This document shows positions 1 to 27,104 of a DNA stretch of 64,000 nt, piece by piece. The notes beneath the pieces are model-generated. The model was not told the DNA's origin. It was given only the letters and a program-made list of their open reading frames with translations, and did not search any database. The stretch lies in contig JAFGRO010000002.1 in the NCBI GenBank assembly GCA_016935095.1, forward strand, positions 3,306-67,305, read 5' to 3'. Numbering within the stretch: position 1 is the first letter of the stretch; every line of letters starts with the position of its first letter. A program made the position numbers and the translations under genes. Source of the DNA: Candidatus Woesearchaeota archaeon (GTDB lineage: Archaea; Nanobdellota; Nanobdellia; Woesearchaeales; GW2011-AR15).

Positions 1-220
1 TAACTCCTGTTTTTTCAATGACCTGTTTTATCTCATTGATTCCGTCTCTATTAAAAACAGGGTTTTGCGAGATATCTTCTTCAAAAATCCATTCTATGCA
101 ATCAAGGCCAACTTTATTTGCTGAATAAAATTCATTTTTCCAGCTATCTTTAGGAAATGCCTGTATCCTGTTATTTACTGGCGGAGAAAGCCTTCCCTGC
201 ATCACACCAATTCTGTTCAT
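1..220 (-). CDS. Partial CDS (N-terminal 73 aa; continues beyond the window start). Xylose-isomerase-like TIM-barrel sugar phosphate isomerase/epimerase family; last gene of the nonulosonic acid operon.
   Basis: Reverse-complement translation starts MNRIGVMQGRLSPPVNNRIQAFPKDSWKNEFYSANKVGLDCIEWIFEED. The GxMQGRL N-terminus is typical of AP_endonuc_2/TIM-barrel sugar isomerases. Its start codon at 218-220 overlaps the upstream stop (ATGA), indicating translational coupling. Confidence 0.5.
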   Translation of the reverse strand, partial: MNRIGVMQGRLSPPVNNRIQAFPKDSWKNEFYSANKVGLDCIEWIFEEDISQNPVFNRDGINEIKQVIEKTGV

Positions 221-936
221 TTTTTATGACCTGTAGCTAAAAGCATTTTTTCTTTTGCGAATCTTATTAATTTTCTTTGTGAAGTTTCATTTCTGTCTTT
301 CCATTTTAAATAATCAGGCAATAAGCTTATTATTTTCGGAATAAAGTTTAAACAAGGATATTCCCAGATAAAAGGCAACTGCAGGAAATATTCACAGCTT
401 ACCTCTGAAAAACCATTTATCCTCATTGCATTCTGCAGTCCTTTTCTTGTAAAAGCCTTTACATGTGTGTAATCATCCCAGTAATTTTTAAACTGGCTTT
501 TCCAGTCAGGAGTCATAATAACGGCAATTCCTCCTGGTTTTAAAACCCTAAGAGCCTCTTTTAAAATATTTTCTGTATTGGATATATGCTCAATAACAGA
601 TTTTGAAAAAACAAAATCAAAGAAATTATCTTTATAAGGAAGTTTGTCTTTTTCAAGATCACAAGATTCAATCGTGAAATTTTTTAATATTTCAACACAT
701 TCTCTTCTCTTATCAATGCCATAAGCCTGGAGACCGCATCTTGAAAAACCGACCAGGTGATTGCCTTTTCCGCTGCCTATATCCAGAATCCTGCATTTCT
801 TTTTGTTTTTAATTGCATAATGCTTAAAAAATCTTTTGAAAATATAATTACATATTTTTTGGGGATAATCTCTTTTTCCGTACTCTTTCCTGAAATAATT
901 AGTTTCAAGATAGCTTGGCATTCTATAAGACCTCAT
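217..936 (-). CDS. Class I SAM-dependent methyltransferase
   Basis: SAM-binding motif I LDIGSGKGNH is followed by an acidic residue (GIDKRRE) and then a VLKPGG motif. Co-directional with and overlapping the neighbouring genes. Confidence 0.8.
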   Translation of the reverse strand: MRSYRMPSYLETNYFRKEYGKRDYPQKICNYIFKRFFKHYAIKNKKKCRILDIGSGKGNHLVGFSRCGLQAYGIDKRRECVEILKNFTIESCDLEKDKLPYKDNFFDFVFSKSVIEHISNTENILKEALRVLKPGGIAVIMTPDWKSQFKNYWDDYTHVKAFTRKGLQNAMRINGFSEVSCEYFLQLPFIWEYPCLNFIPKIISLLPDYLKWKDRNETSQRKLIRFAKEKMLLATGHKK

Positions 937-1678
937 TAACCTTTTTTCTTAATTCCCTGAATTCATCATTATTTAAAATCTTTTCAGCGTATTTTAAATC
1001 TTCAATTATATCTAAATCTGCTGTTTTATCTGTAATAAAAGCATGTATGAATTTTCCATGGAGCATGTTTGTTCTTTTAATTGTTTCTGGTTTTATTATA
1101 TCAATATATCCATTTGGTTTGAATGTAACAGGAAATTTTTGTCTTGGATAATTATGGTATTCTTCATCTTCTTTAAATTCCTGTTTACAGAAAAAGTCAT
1201 AATAGCCTCCTGCTTTTTTGAATAATTTATAAGGTGTTTCTTTTAGTATATGCGAGCTTCTCAGAGAAGTTGCTTTTTTATCAGTAATCATCTCTTCAAT
1301 TGCCTTATCTATTAGTCTGAAATCCCTGAGCGGTGTTGTAGGTCTTAGGTGTACAATCAAGTTAGGGACATAATTCTCATTTTCTTTGAGAAAATCCAGT
1401 GCATGCATTACCCATTCCCTGTCAGTTGAATAATCACCAGATATATCTACTGGTCTTAAAAAAGGAACTTCAGCTCCATATTTTTCCGCAATCTTCGCAT
1501 ATTCTTCACTGTCAGTGGAGACAATGATCCTGTTAATAAACTTAGATAATTTGGCAGCCACAACTGAATACGCAATTAATGGATGTCCTCCTAAGTTTAT
1601 GATGTTTTTATCAGTGATTCCCTTTGAGCCGCTTCTTGCGGGAATCAGTGCAAGTATTTTTAGATTTGTTTCTTTCAT
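923..1678 (-). CDS. Acylneuraminate cytidylyltransferase family (CMP-nonulosonate synthetase, NeuA/LegF-like), copy 1
   Basis: N-terminal ALIPARSGSKGITDKNI and the following fold are characteristic of CTP_transf_3 CMP-NeuAc/CMP-Kdo synthetases. Sits directly downstream of a NeuB-like synthase. Confidence 0.85.
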   Translation of the reverse strand: MKETNLKILALIPARSGSKGITDKNIINLGGHPLIAYSVVAAKLSKFINRIIVSTDSEEYAKIAEKYGAEVPFLRPVDISGDYSTDREWVMHALDFLKENENYVPNLIVHLRPTTPLRDFRLIDKAIEEMITDKKATSLRSSHILKETPYKLFKKAGGYYDFFCKQEFKEDEEYHNYPRQKFPVTFKPNGYIDIIKPETIKRTNMLHGKFIHAFITDKTADLDIIEDLKYAEKILNNDEFRELRKKVNEVL

Positions 1679-1682
1679 TTAA

Positions 1683-2714
1683 TTATAGATTATCCACTCT
1701 TCTTAGTTTTTTAATTATCGGCTTTTCCGACTCAAATATCTTTTTATTGCCGTCGCCTAAATATAAAGAGAGGAATTCAGCTTCTCTGGTAATATATTCC
1801 ATTCCCTTTTTTTCAAGGCTTGCTGCCTGGTCACTTCCATACATAGACCTGTCCAGGGTAATATGCCTTTCAACTACGCATGCTCCTAATGCGAGTGCAA
1901 CAACCGAAGGCATTATACCTGTTTCATGGCCGCTGTACCCTATAGGGCAGTTAAAGTATTTCCTGAATGTTTTTATAACATTAAGGTTCAGCTCTTCCAG
2001 CTTTGTAGGATAAGTTGATGTGCAATGCAGAATCACAAGATTTTCCTCGCCTAATATACTTAATGCTTTTTTGATTTCCTCCATTGAAGACATGCCTGTA
2101 GATAATATAACCGGCTTGCCTGTTTCTTTTATTTTATTCAGCAATGATTTATTCGTTAGAGTGGCTGAAGCAATTTTATAACATGGCACATCAAATTTTT
2201 CAAGAAAATCAACACTGCCGACATCCCAGGGAGAAGCGAACCACATTATGCCTTTTTCTTTGCAATACTCATCAATCTCTTTGTATTCTCTCTCTCCGAA
2301 TTCCAGTGCCCTTTTTAAATCACCGTTTGTAGTGCCAAAAGGACTTTCCCTTGCTCTTTCTAAGTCCTCTTTTGAATAAACAACATCAACATTCCTTTTT
2401 TGGAATTTAACAGCATGCCATCCGCAATTTACTGCCAGATCAATTAATTTTTTTGCAATATTTATATCACCGTTATGGTTAATACCTATTTCAGCAATTA
2501 AAAAAACGGGCTGCTTATGACCTATTAGCCTGTTGCCTATTTTTACTGGTTCCGGGTTTTTAATATCCAGGAATATTTTTTCATAAAAATTCCAAGCCTG
2601 GATAACTGCCTGGGTCTTATTCAGAATTAGCCCGCTGCTTTCATTGACATAGCTGCTGATCTTTTCATTTAATTCTTCAGGTATTGTTAAAGACATATAA
2701 CCTTGTTTTGGCAT
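1683..2714 (-). CDS. N-acylneuraminate-9-phosphate/nonulosonate synthase family (NeuB/LegI/PseI-like), copy 1
   Basis: FLIAEIGINHNGDINIAKKLIDLA is the NeuB TIM-barrel signature. A C-terminal SAF-like domain (LRRVDNL) is present. Same strand as and adjacent to the cytidylyltransferase. Confidence 0.9.
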   Translation of the reverse strand: MPKQGYMSLTIPEELNEKISSYVNESSGLILNKTQAVIQAWNFYEKIFLDIKNPEPVKIGNRLIGHKQPVFLIAEIGINHNGDINIAKKLIDLAVNCGWHAVKFQKRNVDVVYSKEDLERARESPFGTTNGDLKRALEFGEREYKEIDEYCKEKGIMWFASPWDVGSVDFLEKFDVPCYKIASATLTNKSLLNKIKETGKPVILSTGMSSMEEIKKALSILGEENLVILHCTSTYPTKLEELNLNVIKTFRKYFNCPIGYSGHETGIMPSVVALALGACVVERHITLDRSMYGSDQAASLEKKGMEYITREAEFLSLYLGDGNKKIFESEKPIIKKLRRVDNL

Positions 2715-2816
2715 TTTCCCACCTCTGTGTTATGTACAGTACCTTTTTTTATTTATTTAAATAATTTTCTGTCATAAATTAGTTTGTACAGTACAAGTAC
2801 CGTAATAGTTAAAGAA

Positions 2817-4454
2817 TTATCTCTTTTTTAATATGCTATTTATTGCTTTAATTAATCTGTCATTAGCTTTTCCATCTGTTTTATAACAATATTCATAAGT
2901 CTCATTTTTTCTTTTTTCATTAATAGATTCTCTGAAGTTTTCATCAAATAGCATTTTTTTAATCAATTCATTTAATTTGTCACCGTGCTTAACAATAAAG
3001 ATAGAAGATATTCCATCAAACATATTTTCAAATAAATTCTCTCCGGACTCAAATTTCAGCAAGATACAGGGCCTGTTTAAGATCATTGCCTCAATCAAAG
3101 CAGTTGAGCCGAAGCTAATTACCAAGTCAGATTCCAGAATGGAATTATATAATATATCAGCGTTTTTATTACTTAGTGAGCCAAACCTGAATCTAATGTT
3201 TTTAATCCCAATCTTTTTGATTATTTTTTTATGCAAAGATATGTCTTTTTCAAGAGGATGTGTTTTAATGATAATCTCGGAATCAGGAAACTCTTTTAAA
3301 TTGGAAAACAGATAAAATAAATATTTTTCAAACTTTTCTTTAGGAAGAACTTTAAACTGCACTAGCGGTGAAGATAAGATTAATATTTTTTTTTTCCCTT
3401 TCTTTTTTTCTTTCTTTTTTATATAATTGCAGATACGCTCATTAATAAAAGAGCCAGTAACAAATATATTTTCAGGTTTCCATTCAGAGTATTTGATCAG
3501 TCTTTTTTTATCATTCGGGCCCCATACAGCAATCTTCGAGCTTGGAAAAAATTCAAAATTTATTCCTGTTAAATTATATGCATGAACTAAAAATAAAGAA
3601 GGTATTCCAGAAGAATGGGCAGCAGCAACCGCACACCTTTCCTGCAGACCGGAAACAACCAGTACAAGATCCAGTTGCTCTTTTTTAATAATATCTTTGA
3701 TTGTGTAATAATAAAGCAGGTAAATGAACAATATTTGTTTTGAGAATAATAAATCCAGTTCTTCATTCACAAACTTCAATAAGGATTCTTTTTTATAAGC
3801 AAATAGTCTCTCTTTAATCTTTTTATCTAATCTTTTCCATTTCCCGGAATATTTTTTTGCTTCTTTTAATGAGCGATAAAATGTTTCTTTGGAAATATAC
3901 TTATCAATCCAGTGATAATACCCTGAGGAAAGAGGCTTTTCAAATGGATTAGTGATTCTTGTTCCGATTACAGGAATTAATTCAATTTTATTGTCCTTTT
4001 CAAGTCTCCTGAATAATTCTCCAATTCTGAAAATATCAATTATTTTTCTTTTTTCATCCAGTTTAATCTGGTCAGTATGCGCTAGAAGCATGACCCTTTT
4101 CTTTTTTGTCTTTTTGCTTTTTTTTTTAACATCCTTTTTTTTAATTAACCTGATATAGTATGTGAAAATAATCACGCTAAGAAAGATTCTGAGGCTGAAT
4201 GAGGCTAGTTTCATCATAAGCCTATGAAAAAAAGAATAATCTCTTTTATCTAAAATTGCATTAAACCGTTTTGTGATTTCAAAGAAAGGAAGCGGAAAGC
4301 AGCCGGCATTAAACCTGAATGAATGAAACCACCAGATTGGGATGTTATCATCAATTTTAAAGGAGTCATCAAAACTCTGTTTATTGTTGATTTTTTTTTT
4401 TGACCAAACAAGTAGTGTCTCTTCAATGTTTTTTAAGGTGTCTCTTGTTTTCAT
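2817..4454 (-). CDS. Membrane-anchored GT-B-fold glycosyltransferase-like protein (TagF/KpsS 'capsule polysaccharide biosynthesis'-like). Candidate CMP-nonulosonate transferase. Paralog of 15985..17610.
   Basis: Hydrophobic helix near residue 90 (LASFSLRIFLSVIIFTYYIRLI). Poly-Lys linker KKKDVKKKSKKTKKKR. CAVAAAHSSGIPSLFLVHAYN motif. C-terminal GT-B-like nucleotide-binding region (VISFGSTALIEAMILNRPCILL). Family assignment not confirmed. Confidence 0.5.
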   Translation of the reverse strand: MKTRDTLKNIEETLLVWSKKKINNKQSFDDSFKIDDNIPIWWFHSFRFNAGCFPLPFFEITKRFNAILDKRDYSFFHRLMMKLASFSLRIFLSVIIFTYYIRLIKKKDVKKKSKKTKKKRVMLLAHTDQIKLDEKRKIIDIFRIGELFRRLEKDNKIELIPVIGTRITNPFEKPLSSGYYHWIDKYISKETFYRSLKEAKKYSGKWKRLDKKIKERLFAYKKESLLKFVNEELDLLFSKQILFIYLLYYYTIKDIIKKEQLDLVLVVSGLQERCAVAAAHSSGIPSLFLVHAYNLTGINFEFFPSSKIAVWGPNDKKRLIKYSEWKPENIFVTGSFINERICNYIKKKEKKKGKKKILILSSPLVQFKVLPKEKFEKYLFYLFSNLKEFPDSEIIIKTHPLEKDISLHKKIIKKIGIKNIRFRFGSLSNKNADILYNSILESDLVISFGSTALIEAMILNRPCILLKFESGENLFENMFDGISSIFIVKHGDKLNELIKKMLFDENFRESINEKRKNETYEYCYKTDGKANDRLIKAINSILKKR

Positions 4455-4478
4455 ATTATTATTTCAAATATTCTTTTG

Positions 4479-6227
4479 TTAATGATATTCATTATTCTTC
4501 AATATTGAATCCAGAAACTTTGAATTATTATAGATGGCATTAGTAAAATCATCTATTTTTCCGGAATTAAATGCTTCAATAATCTCAAGAATTCCCTGTT
4601 CAGCCTTTAGTTTAGTCCTGAAATTTAATTCTTTTTTAATTTTATCAAAATTCACTCTATAGTCTCGTTTATCAACATCTTTAAGCGAAATGTTCATCTT
4701 TGAGCTGGGAATTAATTCTTTTATTTTTTCTCCTATTTCAATAATTTTATAATTCTCTTCATTAGAGCCAACATTAAAAATTTCTCCTTTTACTTTGTTA
4801 ATAGGCGCTTCCAGAACTTTGATGTATGCGTCAGCAGCATCTTTTACATGAAGCAAGGGTCTCCATTGCTCTCCTCCGAAAACTGAAAATTCTCCTTTTT
4901 TTATGGCCAACGCTGTCAATATGTTCAAAACCAAATCAAATCTTGGCCTGTGAGAGAATCCGTAAAGTGTGCCCATCCTCATGATTGTAGGAGAAAAGTT
5001 TTCATCAGTTAATTCAAATAAACCTTTTTCACTGTTAATCTTGTCTCTTGCATATAACGAGACAGGGCTTAATTCTGAGTCTTCTGTTAAAATATCCTGG
5101 CCCTGCCCATAGACACTGCAGCTGGAGGCAAAAATAAACCTGTTAATCTGGTTGTATTTGCATATCTGAGCTAAATTTAAGGTTGCAAGATAATTCTGCT
5201 CAATTGTTTTTAAGGGGGATAAACCACATGCAGGATCTCCCACTATTCCTGCCAGATGAATCACAGCATTAACATCTCTTATTGATTTTGTGATATCTTC
5301 AATATGCCTTACATCACCTGTAACCAACCTGAAATTCGGATGATTTTCCAATTCACTGAGAGACTCTTTCCCGTATAATAATCTGTCCAGAACAACAACC
5401 CAGTATCCTCTTTTTAGGAGTTTTCTGACCAAGACCGAGCCCAAATACCCTGCGCCTCCTGTCACAAGAACAGAATTTATTTTTTTGTTTTTATAAGTTG
5501 AATAATTACTAAGATAATCATAGTAACCTTTGTTATAAACCTGTTTAAGTGCAGTTACCCTGGCTTCTTTATCTAAAACAGGGATTTTAAGAAATTTATT
5601 ATGGGGGATTAATCTAATTAGCTCTTCATTATCCATATTTTCTGTTCCGGTGACTGGATTTTTATTCATAATTTTGCCAATAGGCTCTTCATGACTTACT
5701 CCGGACAGAATTCCCTCTCTTATATCATTATCTGTAACAAGTCCTTTTAACCTTTCATTATCATCAACAATTAATCCAATCCCTAACCCGGATAAATCAA
5801 TCTTTTTCATTACAGATTTTAAAGAGTCATTTTTATTTACAAACACTTTCTCAAGTTCTTTGCCTTTTATTGAAACAGGCAACTCACTAAACTTGATAAA
5901 AATGTCAGCAACTTTATTGTCATCATCCACTAGGATAAGTTTTCCGACAATATCTCTTTTTTCAGTTAGTTCAATAAGTTCCTGTTTAGAAGAATTAATG
6001 TGGGCTGTAACTGGATTAAAATTAGCAATGCTTTTCAGCTTTTTGTTAATGTCATTATCTTTTATAAGGCCTCTTCTTAAATCCCCTGCGCTTACAATGC
6101 CTTTTAGCTTTTTATCCTGGTCAACTAATATGAGAATGCCTAACCCTGTCTCATTTAATATGCCTAGTCCTTTTTCAATAGTTTCATCCTCATTAACAAG
6201 AAGGGAATCTATAATGCCCTCATTCAT
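4479..6227 (-). CDS. Fusion protein: N-terminal tandem CBS domains plus C-terminal NAD-dependent sugar-nucleotide 4,6-dehydratase/epimerase (PseB/LegB/CapD-like)
   Basis: The N-terminal ~240 aa carry repeated CBS-like segments (VTAHINSSKQELIELTEKRDIVGKLILVDDDNKV; LKGLVTDNDIREGIL). The C-terminus has the Rossmann motif VLVTGGAGYLGSVLVRKLL and an SDR extended-family fold. Confidence 0.85.
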   Translation of the reverse strand: MNEGIIDSLLVNEDETIEKGLGILNETGLGILILVDQDKKLKGIVSAGDLRRGLIKDNDINKKLKSIANFNPVTAHINSSKQELIELTEKRDIVGKLILVDDDNKVADIFIKFSELPVSIKGKELEKVFVNKNDSLKSVMKKIDLSGLGIGLIVDDNERLKGLVTDNDIREGILSGVSHEEPIGKIMNKNPVTGTENMDNEELIRLIPHNKFLKIPVLDKEARVTALKQVYNKGYYDYLSNYSTYKNKKINSVLVTGGAGYLGSVLVRKLLKRGYWVVVLDRLLYGKESLSELENHPNFRLVTGDVRHIEDITKSIRDVNAVIHLAGIVGDPACGLSPLKTIEQNYLATLNLAQICKYNQINRFIFASSCSVYGQGQDILTEDSELSPVSLYARDKINSEKGLFELTDENFSPTIMRMGTLYGFSHRPRFDLVLNILTALAIKKGEFSVFGGEQWRPLLHVKDAADAYIKVLEAPINKVKGEIFNVGSNEENYKIIEIGEKIKELIPSSKMNISLKDVDKRDYRVNFDKIKKELNFRTKLKAEQGILEIIEAFNSGKIDDFTNAIYNNSKFLDSILKNNEYH

Positions 6228-8075: not shown

Positions 8076-9217
8076 ATCTGCTTTTGGATTATATCTTTTG
8101 AAATTTTGATTTCACTTAATACTTTACAGATTTTAACTGAAGCAGTCCCTTCTCCATAAGGGTTTTTTATGTTTTTTAATAAATCTTTAAAATTTTCATC
8201 ATATAATGCTTTATTAATCGCTTTAATAATATCAGATTTGTCAAACTCAACATCAATCACGTTATTGCTTCTTTCTCTTAGCTTTTGCCTTATGCCAATA
8301 TTTACCACAGGTATCTTAAAAGAGGGAGCTTCTATTATACCTGAGCTTGAATTTCCGATTAAAACAGAACCATATTTTAATAATGAGAGATATTCTCTGT
8401 GCTTTAAATTTTTAAAAATTCTTAAAAATTTTTGATTCTTATTTCCCTCAATTATTTTAATTATCTGAAGAGTCCCAGAATCAGCATTGGGATAAATCAA
8501 TACTGTTGGCAAATCAAATTCTTTAATTGCATCAAGTGTTATTTTAAATTGTTTTCCTGAAGACCCGATTTCAGTTGTGACAGGATGCTGTAGAAGTATT
8601 AAAAAAGGCATATCCGGATCAATATTGAATCTTTTTTTGAAATCTTGTTTTGACATTAATTCTTCATGCAAAGCAGTATCTAGTCCTGAAGAACCCACAT
8701 TAAAAACATAATCCGGATTTTCTCCCATTTTAATTATTCTCTGTTTACTTTTTTCTGTAACTGCAAAATGAATATGGCTGAATTTTGTTATGGCATGTCT
8801 TGTGCATTCATCAAGACCTCCTGAAACATCCCCTCCGTGAATATGGGCAATAACCTTATTCATAAATGCTCCTGAAACAGCAGCAGCCAACGGCTCTGTT
8901 CTGTCACCTAAAATCAATATAATATCAGGATTTAAGTCTTTGAAAGCATTGGTTAAATTAATAATGCCTTTACCAACAGACCTGCTCATAAATTCTCCGC
9001 TGTCTCCGACTTCAGTCATTGGGACTTTTTTATCAATTGCAAAACCGTCTTTAATAATGTCTTCATAGGTATTACCGTATTCTTCCAAAAGGTGCATGCC
9101 CGTTGCAATTAACTGTAATGTGATTTTGTCATTTTCAGCTAGTCTTTTTATAATTGGCCTTAAAAGCCCGTATTCTGCTCTGGTTCCGGTCACAACACAA
9201 ATCTTTGTTTTTTTCAT
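8066..9217 (-). CDS. UDP-N-acetylglucosamine 2-epimerase family, hydrolysing type (NeuC/LegG-like)
   Basis: KICVVTGTRAEYGLLRPIIKRL and HIHGGDVSGGLDECTRHAITK are Epimerase_2 (WecB/NeuC) signatures. Confidence 0.85.
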   Translation of the reverse strand: MKKTKICVVTGTRAEYGLLRPIIKRLAENDKITLQLIATGMHLLEEYGNTYEDIIKDGFAIDKKVPMTEVGDSGEFMSRSVGKGIINLTNAFKDLNPDIILILGDRTEPLAAAVSGAFMNKVIAHIHGGDVSGGLDECTRHAITKFSHIHFAVTEKSKQRIIKMGENPDYVFNVGSSGLDTALHEELMSKQDFKKRFNIDPDMPFLILLQHPVTTEIGSSGKQFKITLDAIKEFDLPTVLIYPNADSGTLQIIKIIEGNKNQKFLRIFKNLKHREYLSLLKYGSVLIGNSSSGIIEAPSFKIPVVNIGIRQKLRERSNNVIDVEFDKSDIIKAINKALYDENFKDLLKNIKNPYGEGTASVKICKVLSEIKISKDIIQKQICY

Positions 9218-9228
9218 TTATTCCACTC

Positions 9229-10365
9229 TTATTCCAGCATCTCAAATGTAATTAAAGTGTCTTTTTTAATATCCTCTTTTGCTTTTCTTCCAATGATTTT
9301 TTCTAAAAATCTCGGGTGCAGACCCATGCCCGGTCTTTTAATTATTAAATCTTTCTTTTCTATTAACTTGCCTTTATTGATGTCTTTATCTGAGATTATG
9401 CTTTTTCTTGTAATTTTTGCAATTCGTAACTCTGCGTCATATGGTTTTTTTTCAGGTGACCCGAGGATTTTTTCAATATTATCTAATTTCAGATTCTCAC
9501 CAAATTGTTTATTAATCTCTTCAAAAGCCTGTTTTGGAGAGAGAATCTTATTATTAAAAATAAATCTTGAATATTTCATTATTTTTTCAATTTCATCAGG
9601 TTCAGCAGAAGCTTTGTGGTCAGGGCCATACATTTTTTTATCAAGTGTAAAATGTTTTTCAATTACATTAGCGTTAAGACATGCCGCTATTACAGATGCT
9701 TCAATTCCCTCACTATGATCCGAGAATCCGACCAGACAATTAAATTCATTTTTAAGTGTAAGCATTGCTCTCAGGTTAATTTTATCAAGAAGCGTTGGAT
9801 AATTAGTAGTGCATTGCAGTAATATGAGTTGGTCATTATTTTTCTTAATCACATCTACAGCTTCTCTGACTTCCTGTAAATTAGCCATTCCCGTACTAAG
9901 AAAGATTGGTTTGCCTAATCTTGAAACATAATCTAAAAACGGCAAATTAGTCAAATCTCCTGAACCAATTTTAAATCCGGGAATTCCAATTTTATCAAGA
10001 ACATCAGCACTCCATTTGCCGCAGTGAGGTGTTGATAAAAAAATAATCCCCTTCTTGTCACAGTACTCTTTCATGATTTTGTGTTGCTCTTCTGTTAATT
10101 CTATCCTTTTTAATAATTCAAGATAACTTTCATCACTTCCTGTGTTTTTTTTTGAATACTCGACCTGTTCTGTTTTTTCTGTTACAAGCAGTTCTGCTTT
10201 AAAAAGCTGGAACTTAATACTATCAACACCGATTTCCAGGGCTTTGTCAACTAATTCCTTTGCAATTTTAATATCTCCGTTATGGTTGACTCCGGCTTCA
10301 GCAATAATAAAGCAGGGATGATTTTGTCCGATTATTTTGTTGCCAATCTTAATTTTATCTTTCAT
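9229..10365 (-). CDS. Nonulosonate synthase (NeuB/LegI-like), copy 2, with C-terminal SAF domain
   Basis: CFIIAEAGVNHNGDIKIAKELVDKALEIG is the NeuB signature. The C-terminal ~60 aa look like a SAF antifreeze-like domain (LIIKRPGMGL). Confidence 0.9.
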   Translation of the reverse strand: MKDKIKIGNKIIGQNHPCFIIAEAGVNHNGDIKIAKELVDKALEIGVDSIKFQLFKAELLVTEKTEQVEYSKKNTGSDESYLELLKRIELTEEQHKIMKEYCDKKGIIFLSTPHCGKWSADVLDKIGIPGFKIGSGDLTNLPFLDYVSRLGKPIFLSTGMANLQEVREAVDVIKKNNDQLILLQCTTNYPTLLDKINLRAMLTLKNEFNCLVGFSDHSEGIEASVIAACLNANVIEKHFTLDKKMYGPDHKASAEPDEIEKIMKYSRFIFNNKILSPKQAFEEINKQFGENLKLDNIEKILGSPEKKPYDAELRIAKITRKSIISDKDINKGKLIEKKDLIIKRPGMGLHPRFLEKIIGRKAKEDIKKDTLITFEMLE

Positions 10366-11582
10366 TTCTCAGTCTCCCATATTGGGTGTCTCAGCTTCCA
10401 TTCTCCTTTTTCCTTTTTCCATAAATGAGGCGACCTGAATTTATCCGCTGTCTCAAAAAATTCATCTTTGCTCATATCCAGATACTCTAAAAATTCTTTG
10501 AAATATCGTTTTGGAAATTCTGAATCAAATTTCTTTACTAATGCAATCCCTTCATCCCTTGTGATCTTTTTATTCCTTATCTCCTGGGATGCATCATAGG
10601 TTGCTCTTCCAATCCCGAATTTGATAAGAGTTGTCCAATAATGATAAGGGTCTGTCTTGTCATCAATACTGTTATATTTTGAATAAGTTCCTTCGGTTCT
10701 CTGGTCATTTGGCTGAAACCCTATCTTTTCAACAGCAAAATAATAAGCTTCCTGGGGATCCCATTTCTCATAATAGCCGACGTAGTGTACATTGATTTCT
10801 TTATTATTTGCACTATCCGGATCAAGAGGAAGATAAGGATCAAGGTCAGTCATAGTTAATCCGTATTTTTTAATAAGCTCTCTGACCTGCACTCCTCCAA
10901 GGAATAAATTCATATAATCTCCATGTAAATGAAATTTTTTTTCTCTGAGAGAAGAAAGAACATCTTTTTTTGGGTTGCCGTATTCTGCTTCATTTTCACC
11001 GTAAAATACTAGAGGGACATCATACTTTAATGCAAATTTAGCCCCAATGTTTTTTTGTCCGAGAATAAACGGCTGGAATGGGTGAAGTAAATTGACAAAT
11101 GCTAATCTCGTTAATAACCTGTGTACCTTGCCATTTGGTGTAAACAGTATATTGTCAAATCCCCCTTTTTGAGTCCATGCGCGGAAATTACGCCACCCGT
11201 AAGGTGTAAATAAATGAGGTGCCCATGTAACAGTAAGAGGGTTCATATTGTATTTGTATTTTAACAGCCATGCTGCCATTGTGCTATCCTTGCCTCCGCT
11301 TCCCGGCACTATGCAATCATACCTACCCTCTGTTCTTCTGTATTTGTCACATAATCTTTTTAATTCTTTTTCTCTTTTTTTCCAGTCGATTTTCTCTTTT
11401 AATTCTGAAACTCTGCATGCATCGCAGATTCCTTCTTCATCAAAGTTGATGGTGTGTTTTTTGGATTTAACTGTATGTCTGAATTCCAGTGAAGAAGAAG
11501 GTCTTTGATTTGAAATAACACAATGTTTGCAGTATTTCACTTCTTTTGGTAATCCATAATATGCTTCTACGTTATTGTTCAT
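10362..11582 (-). CDS. N-acetyl sugar amidotransferase (WbuX/PseA/AglX family; PP-loop ATP pyrophosphatase)
   Basis: N-terminal Zn-ribbon cysteines (CKHCVISNQRP...GICDACR). PP-loop SGGKDS. Immediately upstream of a HisF/HisH paralog, as in the WbuXYZ / AglXYZ systems. Confidence 0.8.
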   Translation of the reverse strand: MNNNVEAYYGLPKEVKYCKHCVISNQRPSSSLEFRHTVKSKKHTINFDEEGICDACRVSELKEKIDWKKREKELKRLCDKYRRTEGRYDCIVPGSGGKDSTMAAWLLKYKYNMNPLTVTWAPHLFTPYGWRNFRAWTQKGGFDNILFTPNGKVHRLLTRLAFVNLLHPFQPFILGQKNIGAKFALKYDVPLVFYGENEAEYGNPKKDVLSSLREKKFHLHGDYMNLFLGGVQVRELIKKYGLTMTDLDPYLPLDPDSANNKEINVHYVGYYEKWDPQEAYYFAVEKIGFQPNDQRTEGTYSKYNSIDDKTDPYHYWTTLIKFGIGRATYDASQEIRNKKITRDEGIALVKKFDSEFPKRYFKEFLEYLDMSKDEFFETADKFRSPHLWKKEKGEWKLRHPIWETEK

Positions 11583-11592
11583 TTTTTCACCT

Positions 11593-13026
11593 TTATAAAG
11601 AACTAAAATATTGTATTATACTCATACCCAATGCTCCGCTTTTTTCCGGGTGGAACTGTGTTGCAAACAGACTGTCTCTTCTTAATATTGAGCAGAATTT
11701 CTGCTCACCGTATGTTGTTATTGCAACAATATTTTTCGGGTTTTCAGGATAAACATAATATGAATGAATAAAATAAGCTTCTGAGCAAGAAGACTTATTT
11801 GAAATAAACTCATTAAAGAATCCATTATTAGGTGTTAACTTATTCCAACCCATGTGAGGGATCCTGTAATATGTGTCCTTAACCTCTTTTTTAGGTTTAA
11901 AAGGAACTACTTTTCCCTGTATAATATCAAGCCCTTTATGATGTCCGAACTCAAAGCTTTCACTCATCAATACCTGCATTCCGAGACAGATTCCTAAAAA
12001 AGGTTTATTGTTCTTAATATATTTTTTAATCGGTTCAATAAAACCCCTGTTTTTAAGCTCCTGCATAGCATAACCAAATGCCCCGTCCCCTGGTAAAACC
12101 AAAAGGCTTGACTTTAGGATCTCTTCAGGATTTTCAATAATCTTTACTTTGTTCCCAAAAAACCTGAAAGCATTTACAACACTTTGTAAATTGCCTGCTC
12201 CGTAATCAATAACAGAGAGGGTCTTTTTATTATTGATATTTGGCTGTTCAACTTGCCATTCATTTTTTTCTCTCATTAAAAAATTATTTTTTTTAAGGTA
12301 AGCTTTTACTTGGTCTATAGATGTTTCATTATAATGTAAGATTGTACCAAAAGCAACAGCATCACATCTGGTTACTTCAAGACAATTCAGTATATCTGCT
12401 TCATTAGAAGCTCCTCCGCAAGCTATAACCGGCACATCAACCACAGATGAGATCTTTTTTATTAGTTCAACATCATATCCTTTTCTTGTCCCTTCCTTAT
12501 CCACAGAAGTAACAAGCAATTCTCCTGCACCTAATTCAACTAATTTTTTTGCCCATTCAATAGCATCTAGATTTGTTCTTTCCCTTCCGCAGTCAATATA
12601 GTTCTCCCATTTATCTTCTCCATGATATTTTGCTTCAATAGAGCCTACTATACACTGTGATCCGAACATTCTTGAAGCCTGATTAATAAATCCGGGATTT
12701 CTTATTGCAGCAGTATTAATTGCAACTTTATCTGCTCCTGCTCTCAGCAGTTTCTTAATATCTTCTATGGTCCTTATACCTCCTCCGACAGTGATAGGAA
12801 TAAAAATCCCGTTAGAGGTTGTATTTTCAACTACCTCAAGAAGATTGTTTCGCTCGTATAAACTGGCAACAATATCAATATAAATTATTTCATCAGCTCC
12901 TGACTCATAATACTTCTTAGCAAGCAAATCAGGCTTGCCTACAACTCTTAAACCTTCCATTTGTATTCCCTTGACAACATTAGGTCCCTTTACATCCAGT
13001 CTTGGAATAATTCTGATTTTCTTCAT
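11593..13026 (-). CDS. Fused imidazole-glycerol-phosphate-synthase-like protein: HisF-like cyclase domain (WbuZ) at the N-terminus and HisH-like class I glutamine amidotransferase (WbuY) at the C-terminus
   Basis: N-terminus IIPRLDVKGPNVVKGIQMEGLRVVGKP plus a second half-barrel (VTSVDKEGTRKGYD) give a HisF fold. C-terminus LSVIDYGAGNLQSVVNAFRFFG...GICLGMQVL...FHPEKS carries the GATase Cys-His-Glu triad. Confidence 0.85.
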   Translation of the reverse strand: MKKIRIIPRLDVKGPNVVKGIQMEGLRVVGKPDLLAKKYYESGADEIIYIDIVASLYERNNLLEVVENTTSNGIFIPITVGGGIRTIEDIKKLLRAGADKVAINTAAIRNPGFINQASRMFGSQCIVGSIEAKYHGEDKWENYIDCGRERTNLDAIEWAKKLVELGAGELLVTSVDKEGTRKGYDVELIKKISSVVDVPVIACGGASNEADILNCLEVTRCDAVAFGTILHYNETSIDQVKAYLKKNNFLMREKNEWQVEQPNINNKKTLSVIDYGAGNLQSVVNAFRFFGNKVKIIENPEEILKSSLLVLPGDGAFGYAMQELKNRGFIEPIKKYIKNNKPFLGICLGMQVLMSESFEFGHHKGLDIIQGKVVPFKPKKEVKDTYYRIPHMGWNKLTPNNGFFNEFISNKSSCSEAYFIHSYYVYPENPKNIVAITTYGEQKFCSILRRDSLFATQFHPEKSGALGMSIIQYFSSL

Positions 13027-13721
13027 TTTATCTCCATTAATTTTTCAGCTATCTTCCAGTCAATAGGCTCATCAATATCTATAGAACTGATCTTATCCAT
13101 AGGAAAGGGGAATACCCTTTTTCCATAGCCATAATTACCTGATTTAAAAATTACATCTGATGTGTAAATATAAATAGCCCCGTTTATTTCATAGGTTTCT
13201 TCTTCATCCTGTGTTCTTAAGACATTAAAATCATTCTCAAAAAGAAATCTTACTTGATTTTTCTCTTTTTTTAAAATCCACTGCGGACCAAGATGTCTCT
13301 TTGTCACAGAAAACAATGTGTCTGCATTATTGTCAGCAAATATTTTTATTGCAGAATCAATATGCTCGGCTTTTCTTAATGGAGATGTTGGTTGCAGCAG
13401 GACAACAATATCCGGAATATATTTCTCATTTGCATTCAGATAATTTAAAACATGCTTTAATACATCAATTGATTTAGACGTATCTTCTGCAAGTTCTTTT
13501 GGTCTGTCGATAATCTCCGCTTTGTATAGCAATGCACTGGCTTTTATTTCAGGGTCTTCAGTAGATACTATTGTCCTGTCAATATATTTTGAGTTTAGGG
13601 ATTGCTCAATAGAATAAGCAATTAACGGCCTGCCTTTTAATAATCTAATATTTTTTTTTTTAATTCTTTTAGAGCCGCCTCTGGCAGGAATTATTGAGAT
13701 AATCTTTCTCTTACCATACAT
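13023..13721 (-). CDS. Acylneuraminate cytidylyltransferase family (CMP-nonulosonate synthetase), copy 2
   Basis: IISIIPARGGSKRIKKKNIRLLKGRPLIAYSIEQS is a CTP_transf_3 signature. 4-nt overlap with the downstream gene. Confidence 0.85.
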   Translation of the reverse strand: MYGKRKIISIIPARGGSKRIKKKNIRLLKGRPLIAYSIEQSLNSKYIDRTIVSTEDPEIKASALLYKAEIIDRPKELAEDTSKSIDVLKHVLNYLNANEKYIPDIVVLLQPTSPLRKAEHIDSAIKIFADNNADTLFSVTKRHLGPQWILKKEKNQVRFLFENDFNVLRTQDEEETYEINGAIYIYTSDVIFKSGNYGYGKRVFPFPMDKISSIDIDEPIDWKIAEKLMEIK

Positions 13722-14220
13722 AAGGATCTACCCTGTCTTTATCATCATATTCCTTCAGTTTAAGCAGGTCATATGTTTCGAATTTGTATGCTACAGTTGT
13801 AAGTGATTCAGACCACTCGCTGATAAGATTGCTGTTCTTCTTTTTAATCTCGTCACTTACCCTTGCCAAATCCTCATGGTTTTTGGCAATTATGACAAGT
13901 GTGAAATCATATTCACCTGAGATTGAAAATACTTCTGCAATTCGCGGGTGTTTTACTACAAATTCTATGAATGATTGTACTTTTTTATGGTCATAGTTGT
14001 GCAACTTTACTTTTATGTCTACAATATAGGGATATCCAAGAATCCTTGGTCTCAGCTGGATTTTCGGGTTAAAAATCTTTTCTTTTCTCATCTTTTCAAT
14101 TCTTTTTTTTACTGAGTCAACAGAAAGCCCGACCTTTTTAGCTATGTCAGTCAGTGACATCCTGCAGTCTTCCTGAAGCAGATTCAGAATAAGACAGTTT
14201 TTTTTGTCTAAATCAACCAT
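13711..14220 (-). CDS. lrp: Lrp/AsnC-family transcriptional regulator (HTH plus RAM domain), first gene of the 14-kb operon
   Basis: N-terminal HTH LLQEDCRMSLTDIAKKVGLSVDSVKKRIEKM. C-terminal RAM/AsnC_trans_reg-like domain. 169 aa is typical for archaeal Lrp. Confidence 0.85.
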   Translation of the reverse strand: MVDLDKKNCLILNLLQEDCRMSLTDIAKKVGLSVDSVKKRIEKMRKEKIFNPKIQLRPRILGYPYIVDIKVKLHNYDHKKVQSFIEFVVKHPRIAEVFSISGEYDFTLVIIAKNHEDLARVSDEIKKKNSNLISEWSESLTTVAYKFETYDLLKLKEYDDKDRVDPYVW

Positions 14221-24067: not shown

Positions 24068-24131
24068 TTTAAATCACCCTTTTTATTATATATATTTAAA
24101 ATGAAAACTACGAACATGAGTGAGTTTGTTT

Positions 24132-25290: not shown

Positions 25291-25301
25291 TTTTTTCAGC
25301 C

Positions 25302-26288: not shown

Positions 26289-26362
26289 CCCAAGATATAA
26301 ACAAAAATAACCGCTATATAAAGCTTTCGCCGAAAAATTTATAAAGAGAAAATCTCATAAAT

Positions 26363-27103: not shown

Positions 27104-27104
27104 T

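What the first reader, a model, noticed from the sequence alone, without database searches (positions are those of the whole stretch)
1..14220. 14-kb co-directional archaeal operon encoding a complete legionaminic-acid-type nonulosonic acid pathway with N-formyl and acetamidino tailoring
Fourteen consecutive minus-strand genes run from the Lrp regulator to the TIM-barrel isomerase. Spacing is tight and many junctions are 4-nt ATGA overlaps.

The operon encodes every step expected for a 5,7-diamino-3,5,7,9-tetradeoxy-nonulosonic acid: 4,6-dehydratase, DegT aminotransferase, N-acyltransferase slot, NeuC-like hydrolysing 2-epimerase, NeuB-like synthase and CMP-transferase. The NeuC-like epimerase is the LegG type, not the PseG type, which points to a legionaminic-type sugar rather than a pseudaminic one.

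The N-acyltransferase slot is filled by a formyltransferase. There is also a WbuXYZ-type amidotransferase and a terminal methyltransferase. Together these predict an unusual N-formyl / acetamidino (possibly N-methyl-acetimidoyl) nonulosonate.

A second NeuB/NeuA pair suggests either two distinct nonulosonic acids or bifurcated tailoring.
Basis: partly seen in the sequence, partly recalled or inferred. Interest (0 to 1): 0.8.

Follow-up and report, generated by a model that had tools for sequence, protein, structure and literature searches.

The report
DPANN archaeal nonulosonic-acid sugar gene cluster
A tiny (Woesearchaeota) archaeon carries a tightly packed gene run for making a sialic-acid-like surface sugar, probably N-formylated and amidinated. 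The kind of cluster is already known, but its first enzyme is unusual and a second, separate sugar-acid module sits next to it.

Summary
Window 1-14220 carries 13 complete and 1 truncated minus-strand genes, with four ATGA overlaps. The content is Lrp, CMP-transferase, HisF-HisH fusion, WbuX, NeuB+SAF, NeuC, formyltransferase, DegT, CBS-SDR, GT-B-like protein, second NeuB, second CMP-transferase, methyltransferase and an AP_endonuc_2 TIM barrel. The source is a Candidatus Woesearchaeota MAG.

NeuC (LegG type), WbuX, the DegT fold, the NeuB fold and an Asn-His-Asp formyltransferase are all confirmed. No acetyltransferase exists anywhere in the 64 kb.

The "4,6-dehydratase" is not LegB, PglF or PseB. 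It is a CBS-fused SDR with an invariant S/T-C-S motif and no Asp/Glu pair. Its closest structure is Cj1427, a C4-dehydrogenase. Context (a fusion to DegT, and being the sole SDR in complete Leg-like sets) places it in the LegB slot, but 6-deoxygenation is unproven.

The second NeuB/CMP-transferase/methyltransferase/TIM set is an independent module conserved in DPANN and CPR. It probably has its own promoter, so the N-methyl-acetimidoyl idea is unsupported.

N-formyl legionaminic clusters are already known (Halorubrum, Kuenenia, PseJ). I rate this a new variant of a known kind, of moderate interest.

The parts
13711..14220 (-). Lrp/AsnC-type transcription regulator, first gene of the run
   Evidence: Pfam HTH_AsnC-type 51 bits plus AsnC_trans_reg 38 bits. 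An Lrp/AsnC gene also accompanies the homologous clusters L005 (52% id) and MGII L085.
13023..13721 (-). CMP-nonulosonate synthetase A (CTP_transf_3)
   Evidence: Pfam PF02348 98 bits. Best NCBIfam hit is PseF at 157 bits, below the 205.7 cutoff. 54% identical to the L005 copy that sits next to NeuB/NeuC.
11593..13026 (-). HisF-HisH fusion (WbuZ-WbuY type glutamine amidotransferase / ammonia-channel partner of WbuX)
   Evidence: His_biosynth 218 bits plus GATase 82 bits. WbuZ TIGR03572 scores 276 (cutoff 299.7), hisF 285 (cutoff 294.6) and HisH 188 (cutoff 105). The same fusion lies next to WbuX in L003, L005 and L006.
10362..11582 (-). WbuX/PseA/PtmG-type N-acetyl sugar amidotransferase (PP-loop SGGKDS motif)
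   Evidence: TIGR03573 374.6 bits against a cutoff of 203.2. The SGGKDS motif is visible in the translation.
9229..10365 (-). NeuB-A: nonulosonate synthase with C-terminal SAF domain (LegI/NeuB type)
   Evidence: Pfam NeuB 278 bits plus SAF 41 bits. TIGR03569 scores 399.2 against a cutoff of 399.65; PseI scores only 255. Best PDB hits are SpsE at 201 bits and NmNeuB at 185 bits.
8066..9217 (-). Hydrolysing NDP-HexNAc 2-epimerase (NeuC/LegG type)
   Evidence: TIGR03568 455 bits against a cutoff of 235.9. The non-hydrolysing WecB model scores only 114.
7401..8063 (-). Short (220 aa) sugar N-formyltransferase of a distinct clade
   Evidence: Formyl_trans_N 47 bits against a cutoff of 26. N70, H72 and D107 are invariant in family alignment A1. 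In L003 the homologue is followed by SHMT and FolD. 30 of the 80 genome loci with this family carry NeuB and NeuC nearby. PDB hits are WbkC at 36 bits and PseJ at 21 bits.
6224..7417 (-). DegT/PLP sugar aminotransferase. The likely start is 7417, which has an AGGAG ribosome-binding site; the longest ORF reaches 7477.
   Evidence: Pfam DegT 349 bits. NCBIfam DesI 282, PseC 244 and LegC 211, all below their cutoffs. Ribosome-binding site shown.
4479..6227 (-). Two Bateman (CBS-pair) modules fused to an extended SDR. It is the supplier of the 4-keto sugar and occupies the LegB slot, but it is not LegB.
   Evidence: CBS and Epimerase domains. LegB model 98.5 bits against a cutoff of 475. The family invariants are (S/T)369-C370-S371-VYG, Y392, K396 and GDPAC. 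Model pLDDT is 87. The best fold match is Cj1427 (6VO6/6VO8), TM 0.91-0.95 at 32% identity. A homologue is fused to DegT in P0227. It is the sole extended SDR in the MGII Leg-like set.
2817..4454 (-). 545-aa membrane-anchored GT-B-like protein, candidate nonulosonate transferase
   Evidence: TIGR04396 surf_polysacc 55 bits and BFO_1060 family GT 54 bits, both below cutoff. Weak Epimerase_2 and Capsule_synth hits. Analogous proteins flank NulO genes in L005, L004, L084, L088 and L090.
2715..2816 (-). 102-nt intergenic region: probable internal promoter/operator for the second module
   Evidence: Two exact TGTACAGTAC copies flank TTTAAATA, and GAGGTG lies before the ATG. The motif occurs 5 times in the window against 1.0 expected.
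1683..2714 (-). NeuB-B: SAF-less NeuB-family synthase with a conserved ~50-aa N-terminal helix-helix extension
   Evidence: Pfam NeuB 269 bits with no SAF domain. 60-70% identical across DPANN and CPR. Best PDB hit is the SAF-less Leptospira enzyme 6NCS at 171 bits. A homologue is fused to SIS_2 in P0267. Structure model.
923..1678 (-). CMP-transferase B (CTP_transf_3), partner of NeuB-B
   Evidence: PF02348 85 bits. It lies adjacent to NeuB-B homologues in L088, L089 and L090.
217..936 (-). SAM-dependent methyltransferase, part of the second module
   Evidence: Methyltransf_23 77 bits. It is homologous (E 8e-12) to the methyltransferase domain fused to the CMP-transferase in L089.
1..220 (-). 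5' part of an AP_endonuc_2 / xylose-isomerase-like TIM-barrel gene, truncated by the window edge
   Evidence: The frame is open from the ATG at 220. 55% identical over 71 aa to the PF01261 protein of L088.

Best explanation
The run is made of two biosynthetic modules for CMP-activated ulosonic acids that decorate the archaeon's surface glycans.

Module A (13721 to 2817, with the Lrp regulator at 13711-14220) makes a legionaminic-type 5,7-diamino nonulosonate by the following route:
1. An NDP-GlcNAc is oxidised at C4, and probably 4,6-dehydrated, by the CBS-fused SDR. Its two Bateman modules plausibly give allosteric (end-product or nucleotide) control of this first committed step.
2. DegT aminates C4.
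3. The formyltransferase N-formylates the new amine with N10-formyl-tetrahydrofolate. It takes the place of the LegH/PglD acetyltransferase, which is absent.
4. NeuC removes the nucleotide and epimerises C2.
5. NeuB-A condenses the product with PEP.
6. CMP-transferase A activates the sugar.
7. WbuX (ATP/PP-loop) and the HisF-HisH fusion (glutamine-derived ammonia) convert the remaining 5-acetamido group to acetamidino. The result is a Leg5Am7Fo-like sugar.
8. The 545-aa GT-B-like protein transfers it.

Module B (2714 to beyond the window start: SAF-less NeuB-B, CMP-transferase B, methyltransferase, TIM barrel) is a separate unit conserved in DPANN and CPR. It makes a different, probably methylated, ulosonic acid from a precursor that does not come from NeuC or DegT.

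What is shown: domain families, catalytic motifs, gene order and conserved synteny. What is inferred: substrates, order of steps, position of the formyl group, 6-deoxygenation, stereochemistry and the acceptor.
For: Families and cutoffs:
- NeuC 455 against 236, WbuX 375 against 203, NeuB-A 399.2 against 399.65 plus SAF, DegT Pfam 349 bits, two CTP_transf_3.

Formyltransferase:
- The Asn-His-Asp triad is invariant.
- SHMT and FolD sit directly after the homologue in L003.
- The family co-occurs with NeuB and NeuC in 30 of 80 loci. There it sits with true LegB (482-509 bits, TSTSEVYG).
- No hexapeptide or GNAT acetyltransferase was found anywhere in the 64-kb window.

CBS-SDR in the LegB slot:
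- It is translationally coupled to DegT by an ATGA overlap.
- A homologue is fused to DegT in P0227.
- It is the only extended SDR in the complete MGII set AsnC-GFO-CMPt-adh_short-HisF-HisH-WbuX-NeuB-NeuC-Hexapep-DegT-CBS-SDR and in L005/L006.
- Its CBS-less relatives sit next to a bona fide LegC-family aminotransferase (461.6 against 420).

Precedents:
- Halorubrum sp. PV6 legC-legB-legF-legG-formyltransferase-neuD-legI makes N-formyl-Leg (PMC6137143).
- The Kuenenia Leg cluster carries a formyltransferase (bioRxiv 10.64898/2026.04.20.719630).
- PseJ formyltransferase structures exist in the PDB.

Module B:
- Searches show its independent conservation.
- Searches show its own promoter-like region.
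Against: - The SDR fails the LegB (98.5 against 475), PseB and RmlB models. It lacks the Asp/Glu pair of canonical 4,6-dehydratases.
- Its nearest characterised relative, Cj1427, oxidises C4 without dehydration (PMC10680097).
- DegT is below the LegC cutoff and scores best on DesI.
- NeuB-A is a hair below its cutoff.
- In several related loci the formyltransferase co-exists with an acetyltransferase (L002, L004, L019; Halorubrum). Its target nitrogen (N7 or N5) is therefore not fixed by family membership.
- No folate C1 genes are in the window.
- Bacteroidota loci have formyltransferase, the same SDR type and LegC without NeuB or NeuC. That trio can therefore work outside NulO synthesis.
- There are no chemical data for this organism.
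Confidence: 0.55

Rival explanations
1. The pathway is the same, but the CBS-SDR is a Cj1427-like C4-dehydrogenase that does not remove the C6 hydroxyl. The product is then a 5,7-diamino-3,5,7-trideoxy-nonulosonate that keeps its 9-OH, that is, a 7-formamido-7-deoxy-neuraminic-type sugar rather than a legionaminic (9-deoxy) one.
For: - The best sequence and fold match is Cj1427 (148 bits; TM 0.91-0.95). Cj1427 releases a 4-keto sugar without dehydration (PMC10680097).
- The family has invariant S/T-C-S in place of T-D-E or T-S-E.
- True LegB enzymes in sister loci all carry TSTSEVYG.
Against: - Identity to Cj1427 is only 32%.
- The family has two invariant residues that Cj1427 lacks: Cys370 and Asp331 of GDPAC. 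These could form an alternative acid/base pair.
- The SDR type partners with LegC-family and PseC-like aminotransferases and with LegG/LegI-type enzymes, whose characterised members use 6-deoxy substrates.
- It replaces LegB or PseB in otherwise canonical sets.
- No such 9-hydroxy diamino NulO is known to me.
Confidence: 0.25
2. Two unrelated sugar pathways are interleaved. SDR, DegT and the formyltransferase make an NDP-4-formamido-hexosamine (an N-formyl-bacillosamine-like sugar) that is used directly as a glycan building block. NeuC, NeuB-A, CMP-transferase A and WbuXYZ make Neu5Ac or 5-acetamidino-neuraminic acid straight from UDP-GlcNAc.
For: - Bacteroidota loci carry formyltransferase, acetyltransferase, the same SDR type and LegC with no NeuB or NeuC within 10 kb.
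- Half of the formyltransferase loci have no NulO genes nearby.
- NeuB-A scores on the NeuB/NnaB model, which also covers Neu5Ac synthases.
Against: - The three genes are wedged between NeuC and the NulO-type GT, with 2-nt, about 17-nt and ATGA junctions.
- The same SDR-DegT-(formyl or acetyl transferase)-NeuC-NeuB block recurs in L005, L006, L084 and MGII L085.
- Module A has no dedicated glycosyltransferase or phosphoglycosyl transferase for an NDP-hexose.
- Halorubrum gives a direct precedent for a formyltransferase inside a Leg pathway (PMC6137143).
Confidence: 0.12
3. The sugar is pseudaminic-type (L-glycero-L-manno) rather than legionaminic-type.
For: - Both CMP-transferases score best on the PseF model. 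DegT scores higher on PseC (244) than on LegC (211).
- A CBS-SDR homologue sits in a Pse-like set with GNAT and Glyco_tran_28_C genes in Nitrospinae L087.
Against: - A strong hydrolysing 2-epimerase is present (TIGR03568, 455 bits). No PseG (Glyco_tran_28_C) or PseH (GNAT) is in the window.
- NeuB-A scores 399 on NeuB/LegI against 255 on PseI.
Confidence: 0.05

Closest known systems
Campylobacter jejuni / Tannerella forsythia CMP-legionaminic acid pathway (LegB, LegC, LegH, LegG, LegI, LegF; PtmG amidotransferase, PtmH methyltransferase)
   Same: Same logic and the same families for aminotransferase (DegT), hydrolysing 2-epimerase (TIGR03568), NeuB-type synthase with SAF, CTP_transf_3 activation and a WbuX/PtmG-type acetamidino-forming enzyme (PMC5378307).
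   Different: - No LegB: a CBS-fused S-C-S SDR stands in its place.
- No LegH/PglD acetyltransferase: a formyltransferase stands in its place.
- No PtmE, PtmA or PtmF genes in the run, so the nucleotide carrier is unknown.
- HisF and HisH are fused.
- The methyltransferase is linked to the other module, not to the amidotransferase.
Halorubrum sp. PV6 legionaminic acid cluster (HrrPV6_1046-1053), which makes N-formyl-legionaminic acid on the S-layer N-glycan
   Same: Archaeal. The legG (NeuC) gene is directly followed by a predicted formyltransferase. legC and legB are adjacent. The N-formyl product was shown by MS (PMC6137143).
   Different: - Halorubrum also has NeuD/LegH acetyltransferases, and its product was assigned as 5-N-formyl.
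- It has no WbuXYZ genes.
- Its LegB is annotated as an ordinary epimerase/dehydratase.
- Sequence relatedness of the two formyltransferases could not be tested here because the sequences were not retrievable.
PseJ (Anoxybacillus) sugar N-formyltransferase of a pseudaminic acid pathway (PDB 6CI2/6CI4)
   Same: A small formyltransferase placed in a nonulosonate pathway. It has the same Formyl_trans_N catalytic core.
   Different: Only a marginal sequence match (21 bits, E 0.0015). The window enzyme belongs to a separate, very widespread clade (more than 590 genome loci) and sits in a NeuC-type, not a PseG-type, pathway.
[quoted passage not shown]
   Same: It is the best sequence and structure match of the SDR domain (148 bits; TM 0.91-0.95; 32% identity). 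Both lack the dehydratase Asp/Glu pair.
   Different: Cj1427 has no CBS modules, carries T-N-S instead of S/T-C-S, lacks the GDPAC Asp, acts on a heptose and is not linked to an aminotransferase. The window enzyme is coupled to DegT, and in P0227 a homologue is fused to it.
Kdo / Kdn-9-P type ulosonic acid routes (SIS isomerase, PEP-condensing synthase, HAD phosphatase, CMP-transferase)
   Same: Module B homologues are linked or fused to a SIS_2 isomerase and flanked by a HAD phosphatase and a CTP_transf_3. This mirrors the KdsD-KdsA-KdsC-KdsB logic.
   Different: The synthase is a SAF-less NeuB, not KdsA. Its substrate is unknown. A methyltransferase and an AP_endonuc_2 TIM barrel are added.

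Membership tests
Legionaminic acid biosynthesis (Leg pathway) | LegB: NAD-dependent NDP-GlcNAc 4,6-dehydratase (TIGR04180, cutoff 475; T-S-E catalytic motif) | tested here: not met
   The SDR scores 98.5 bits. Its motif is S-C-S. True LegBs in sister loci score 482-509 with TSTSEVYG. Only the slot is occupied, and that is shown by context alone.
Legionaminic acid biosynthesis (Leg pathway) | LegC-family PLP aminotransferase (TIGR04181, cutoff 420) | tested here: not met
   211 bits. The best hit is DesI at 282. DegT Pfam membership is clear at 349 bits.
Legionaminic acid biosynthesis (Leg pathway) | LegH/PglD-type N-acetyltransferase acting on the 4-amino sugar | tested here: not met
   tblastn with three hexapeptide acetyltransferases and one GNAT found no homologue in the 64-kb window. 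The formyltransferase is the only candidate acyl-transfer enzyme.
Legionaminic acid biosynthesis (Leg pathway) | LegG: hydrolysing NDP-sugar 2-epimerase (TIGR03568) | tested here: met
   455.1 bits against a cutoff of 235.9.
Legionaminic acid biosynthesis (Leg pathway) | LegI/NeuB synthase with SAF domain (TIGR03569, cutoff 399.65), scoring above PseI | tested here: inconclusive
   399.2 bits, 0.45 below the cutoff. PseI scores 255. Pfam NeuB and SAF are present. The model does not separate LegI from Neu5Ac synthase.
Legionaminic acid biosynthesis (Leg pathway) | CMP-activating cytidylyltransferase | tested here: met
   PF02348 98 bits for copy A. No Leg-specific model exists in the libraries used.
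Legionaminic acid biosynthesis (Leg pathway) | Product is 9-deoxy with D-glycero-D-galacto configuration | not testable with these tools
   This needs MS or NMR of the sugar, or enzyme assays.
WbuXYZ / PseA / PtmG acetamidino-forming system | WbuX-type PP-loop N-acetyl sugar amidotransferase (TIGR03573) | tested here: met
   374.6 bits against a cutoff of 203.2. The SGGKDS motif is present.
WbuXYZ / PseA / PtmG acetamidino-forming system | HisF-like WbuZ and HisH-like WbuY partners | tested here: inconclusive
   The fused protein scores WbuZ 276.1 (cutoff 299.7), hisF 284.7 (cutoff 294.55) and HisH 188 (cutoff 105). Adjacency to WbuX is conserved in L003, L005, L006 and L085.
N10-formyl-THF-dependent sugar N-formyltransferases | Formyl_trans_N core with the catalytic Asn-His-Asp triad | tested here: met
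   PF00551 47.4 bits against a cutoff of 26.1. N70, H72 and D107 are invariant in 18 family members. Best PDB hits are the sugar formyltransferases WbkC, VioF and WlaRD.
N10-formyl-THF-dependent sugar N-formyltransferases | Acts on the C4 amine of the NDP-hexosamine, which becomes N7 of the NulO | not testable with these tools
   Only context speaks to this. There is no acetyltransferase in the window, but the formyltransferase co-exists with acetyltransferases in other loci.
Cj1427-type NDP-sugar C4-dehydrogenases | Releases a 4-keto sugar without dehydration; tightly bound NADH recycled by 2-oxoglutarate | not testable with these tools
   Fold TM is 0.91-0.95 at 32% identity. The catalytic neighbourhood differs: S/T-C-S and GDPAC against T-N-S and GAPLC.
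Pseudaminic acid pathway | PseG UDP-sugar hydrolase and PseH GNAT, with no 2-epimerase | tested here: not met
   There are no Glyco_tran_28_C or GNAT genes in the run, and a NeuC-type 2-epimerase is present.

The most novel reading that the evidence does not exclude
The CBS-fused S/T-C-S SDR family has more than 3500 members. It is the only first-step enzyme in the nonulosonate clusters sampled here: a marine Group II archaeon, several DPANN archaea and a Nitrospinae bacterium. The novel reading is that it is not a 4,6-dehydratase but a Cj1427-like C4-oxidase. These organisms would then make a previously unrecognised class of 9-hydroxy 5,7-diamino nonulosonic acids, here N7-formyl and N5-acetamidino.

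A second, independent possibility concerns the SAF-less NeuB module. It is fused to a GmhA-like isomerase in relatives and sits near a heptose pathway here, so it might condense PEP with a heptose phosphate to give a 10-carbon ulosonic acid.
Probability: 0.25. Interest if true: 0.75.

Novelty: new variant of a known kind. Interest (0 to 1): 0.45.

Why it matters
Sialic-acid-like sugars shape cell-cell and virus-host recognition. DPANN archaea live attached to hosts, so a formylated and amidinated (charge-neutralised) nonulosonate on their surface is a plausible interaction determinant. None of the 8.0 million papers searched combined 'nonulosonic' with 'DPANN'.

The finding also isolates two uncharacterised and very widespread enzyme families that can be tested directly:
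- A CBS-regulated SDR that replaces LegB/PseB. It is either a new dehydratase chemistry or the entry to a new sugar class.
- A SAF-less NeuB module shared by DPANN and CPR.

The general concept, an N-formyl/acetamidino legionaminic-type cluster, is already established in Halorubrum, Kuenenia, Campylobacter and Tannerella.

Tried and rejected
- Sequences beyond the window start: look-ups of the methyltransferase and of P0001 returned nothing or only an 11-kb Logan contig. The 3' end of module B remains unseen.
- Halorubrum PV6 sequences: the paper's supplement holds only an S-layer alignment. Direct comparison of the formyltransferases and LegB was therefore impossible.
- Literature: searches for 'CBS domain' with legionaminic or nonulosonic, and for 'nonulosonic' with 'DPANN', gave zero papers. 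The Cj1427 structure papers are not held; the PDB identity was confirmed through the fold-search description instead.
- Pfam on the NeuB-B N-terminal 69 aa and on the 73-aa TIM fragment gave no hits. The TIM identity was settled by BLASTP to L088. The RHH idea for the extension rests only on a helix-helix model.
- The idea that the 311-aa SDR at 27105-28040 is the missing dehydratase was considered and rejected. It lies in the GDP-heptose operon behind the HddC-like gene.
- The idea that HisF-HisH is housekeeping histidine biosynthesis was considered and rejected, because it is conserved next to WbuX.
- tRNA scan: none found.
- The sigma-70 promoter scanner was not used because the host is archaeal.

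Full report
OBSERVATION

The region 1-14220 contains 13 complete minus-strand ORFs and a 14th that starts at 220 and runs off the window. The next gene, at 14508, is on the other strand. GC skew is negative over the run and flips at 14-16 kb. Four junctions are exact ATGA overlaps (CMPtA/HisFH, WbuX/NeuB-A, DegT/SDR, MT/TIM). The others are overlaps of 11-17 nt or gaps of 2-24 nt, plus one gap of 102 nt before the second NeuB.

SOURCE

The formyltransferase, SDR and NeuB-B proteins are identical to NCBI proteins of a 'Candidatus Woesearchaeota archaeon' MAG on a 75,770-bp contig. That lineage is Archaea; Nanobdellati (DPANN). The same DNA is assembled from run SRR13394437. The whole 64-kb window is a glycan island with GT2, GT4, PMT_2, UbiA, methyltransferases and radical-SAM enzymes.

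GENE CONTENT

In transcription order:
- Lrp/AsnC regulator.
- CTP_transf_3 (copy A).
- A HisF-HisH fusion: WbuZ 276 against 299.7; HisH 188 against 105.
- WbuX: TIGR03573, 374.6 against 203.2, with a PP-loop SGGKDS.
- NeuB with SAF: TIGR03569 399.2 against 399.65; PseI 255.
- NeuC: TIGR03568, 455 against 236.
- A 220-aa formyltransferase.
- DegT: Pfam 349 bits; DesI 282, PseC 244, LegC 211, all below cutoff.
- A 582-aa protein with two Bateman modules and an extended SDR.
- A 545-aa GT-B-like protein, weakly matching TIGR04396 and the BFO_1060 family that flanks the Tannerella Leg locus (PMC5378307).
- After the 102-nt gap: a SAF-less NeuB, a second CTP_transf_3, a class-I methyltransferase and the start of an AP_endonuc_2 TIM barrel (55% identical to L088).

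THE FORMYLTRANSFERASE

Its family is large, with more than 592 loci in the genome collection, bacterial and archaeal. It conserves the Asn-His-Asp triad of N10-formyl-THF transferases. Within 10 kb, 30 of the 80 best loci carry NeuB and NeuC, and 41 carry a DegT. In those loci the accompanying SDR is a bona fide LegB (TIGR04180 482-509 bits, motif TSTSEVYG).

In the Woesearchaeota locus L003 the gene is followed by serine hydroxymethyltransferase (612 bits) and FolD (293 bits), that is, by the enzymes that make the formyl donor. A PseC-like aminotransferase and a PseB-like dehydratase come next.

The window holds no hexapeptide or GNAT acetyltransferase and no SHMT or FolD. The formyltransferase is therefore the only N-acylating enzyme available to the pathway here.

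The target nitrogen is still an inference. In L002, L004, L019 and Halorubrum the formyltransferase co-exists with an acetyltransferase (PMC6137143). Relation to the structurally known PseJ is marginal (21 bits).

THE 'DEHYDRATASE'

- The SDR domain scores 98.5 bits on LegB (cutoff 475), 109 on RmlB and 48 on PseB; its top NCBIfam hit is GalE at 138.
- In an alignment of 18 family members the residues at the RmlB Thr133-Asp134-Glu135 positions are invariantly (S/T)-Cys-Ser, followed by VYG. The Tyr-x3-Lys pair is intact, and a GDPAC motif is invariant. The assignment of the RmlB, GMD and GalE motifs is from my own knowledge.
- The best PDB sequence match (148 bits, next best 108) and the best fold match (TM 0.91-0.95, 32% identity; model pLDDT 87) is Cj1427. 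Cj1427 is the GDP-heptose C4-dehydrogenase that releases a 4-keto sugar without dehydration (PMC10680097).

Context, however, puts the protein firmly in the first-step slot.
- It overlaps DegT by ATGA.
- A homologue is fused to DegT (P0227, in a cluster with PglD-like, CTP_transf_3, NeuB+SAF, NeuC and AglB).
- In marine Group II archaea it is the only extended SDR in a textbook set: AsnC, GFO_IDH_MocA, CTP_transf_3, adh_short, HisF, HisH, WbuX, NeuB, NeuC, Hexapep, DegT, CBS-SDR.
- In a Nitrospinae locus it sits in a Pse-like set.
- CBS-less relatives (41-45% identity, STCSNYG/GDPAC) lie next to a true LegC-family aminotransferase (461.6 against 420) in Bacteroidota.
- Across formyltransferase-plus-NulO loci, LegB-type, PseB-type and CBS-SDR-type enzymes appear to replace one another.

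I conclude that it supplies the 4-keto substrate. Whether it also removes the C6 hydroxyl is open. The invariant Cys370 and Asp331, both absent from Cj1427, could be an alternative acid/base pair; this is inference.

The CBS pairs resemble those of KpsF/GutQ (73 bits). That fits allosteric control of the committed step, again by inference. Most family members have one Bateman module, whereas this one has two.

MODULE B

NeuB-B lacks the SAF domain. It is 60-70% identical across Woese-, Pace- and Nanoarchaeota, and about 67% identical to 293-aa forms in CPR bacteria. Its best PDB match is the SAF-less Leptospira enzyme 6NCS.

In three contexts it sits next to a CTP_transf_3, with no NeuC, DegT or formyltransferase nearby. 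The neighbours are SIS_2, HAD, methyltransferase, adh_short, GFO_IDH_MocA, AP_endonuc_2 and Capsule_synth-like genes. In L089 the SIS_2 domain is fused to NeuB-B and the methyltransferase to the CMP-transferase.

In the window, the 102-nt gap upstream holds two exact TGTACAGTAC copies around a TTTAAATA box and a GAGGTG ribosome-binding site. The second pair is therefore a separate pathway for another ulosonic acid, and the methyltransferase belongs to it.

MECHANISM AND RIVALS

Best reading (0.55): NDP-GlcNAc is converted to a 4-keto(-6-deoxy) sugar by the CBS-SDR, then to a 4-amino sugar by DegT, then to a 4-formamido sugar by the formyltransferase. NeuC then gives a 2-epimerised free sugar, NeuB-A with PEP gives the nonulosonate, and CMP-transferase A activates it. 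WbuX with HisFH converts the 5-acetamido group to acetamidino, and the GT-B-like protein transfers the sugar. The product is a Leg5Am7Fo-like sugar.

Rivals:
- The same route without 6-deoxygenation, giving a 9-hydroxy diamino sugar (0.25).
- Two interleaved pathways: an N-formyl-bacillosamine-like NDP-sugar plus a Neu5Ac/Neu5Am route (0.12).
- A pseudaminic-type product (0.05). This is contradicted by NeuC and by the absence of PseG and PseH.

COMPARISON WITH THE KNOWN, AND NOVELTY

- N-formyl legionaminic acid and a formyltransferase gene directly after legG are documented in the archaeon Halorubrum sp. PV6 (PMC6137143).
- A Leg cluster with a deacetylase and a formyltransferase was reported for Kuenenia (bioRxiv 10.64898/2026.04.20.719630).
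- PseJ is a solved Pse-pathway formyltransferase.
- Acetamidino-Leg and the PtmG/PtmH logic are cited in that preprint and in PMC5378307.

The cluster is thus a variant of a known kind. The new elements are the DPANN host, the CBS-SDR replacing LegB, formyl-only acylation combined with WbuXYZ, and the adjacent SAF-less module. Interest is 0.45.

Noticed in passing
window 23417-28040 (minus strand): A complete-looking GDP-D-glycero-D-manno-heptose route: transaldolase/FSA, GmhB-like HAD, GmhA-like SIS_2, HddA-like GHMP kinase (162 bits), HddC-like nucleotidyltransferase (113 bits) and an RmlB/GalE-like 311-aa SDR. Relatives of NeuB-B are fused or adjacent to the same kind of SIS_2 isomerase, which hints at a link between heptose phosphate and the second ulosonic acid.
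   Followed up: partly
window 2715-2816: Two exact copies of TGTACAGTAC lie 52 bp apart around a TATA-like TTTAAATA box, just upstream of NeuB-B. The motif occurs 5 times (up to 1 mismatch) in the window against 1.0 expected. This looks like a candidate operator and internal promoter.
   Followed up: partly
window 2565-2714 (N-terminus of NeuB-B): A ~50-residue extension is conserved in the DPANN 343-aa forms and absent from the 293-aa CPR forms. It models as an extended segment followed by two helices, which is ribbon-helix-helix-like. It has no Pfam hit. It may be a DNA-binding or oligomerisation add-on to an enzyme.
   Followed up: partly
window 14508-15953, 17665-18687, 28388-29935, 47431-49164: Three B12-binding radical-SAM enzymes and one radical-SAM/SPASM enzyme are embedded among glycosyltransferases, methyltransferases and an AsnB-type amidotransferase (18680-20542). 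B12-rSAM genes also flank the NeuB-B module in L089. They may methylate or otherwise modify sugars.
   Followed up: no
L003 11303-13367; L004 7808-9215; L002 11238-12065: Serine hydroxymethyltransferase and/or FolD genes sit directly beside the formyltransferase in DPANN nonulosonate clusters. The operon thus encodes its own supply of N10-formyl-THF.
   Followed up: partly
P0227 (L084 10001-12547); P0267 (L089 6623-8230); L089 8236-9612; L003 7127-8869; L004 11076-12710: Several gene fusions tie pathway steps together: DegT+CBS+SDR, SIS_2+NeuB-B, CTP_transf_3+methyltransferase, CMP-transferase+NeuB and Hexapep+DegT.
   Followed up: partly
L027, L037, L046, L053, L065, L076, L078 (Bacteroidota), around 9.9-13.4 kb of each locus: A conserved block (formyltransferase, hexapeptide acetyltransferase, CBS-less S/T-C-S SDR, LegC-family aminotransferase) has no NeuB or NeuC within 10 kb. 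This suggests an N-formyl/N-acetyl diamino-hexose made by the same unusual SDR.
   Followed up: partly
window 4479-5210 (N-terminal half of the SDR protein): This copy has two Bateman (CBS-pair) modules, whereas most of the more than 3500 family members have one (about 470 aa). No function is known for the duplication.
   Followed up: no
window 15985-17610, 31602-32531, 32869-34485: Three sizeable ORFs (541, 309 and 538 aa) inside the glycan island have no Pfam match apart from one marginal GT4 hit.
   Followed up: no
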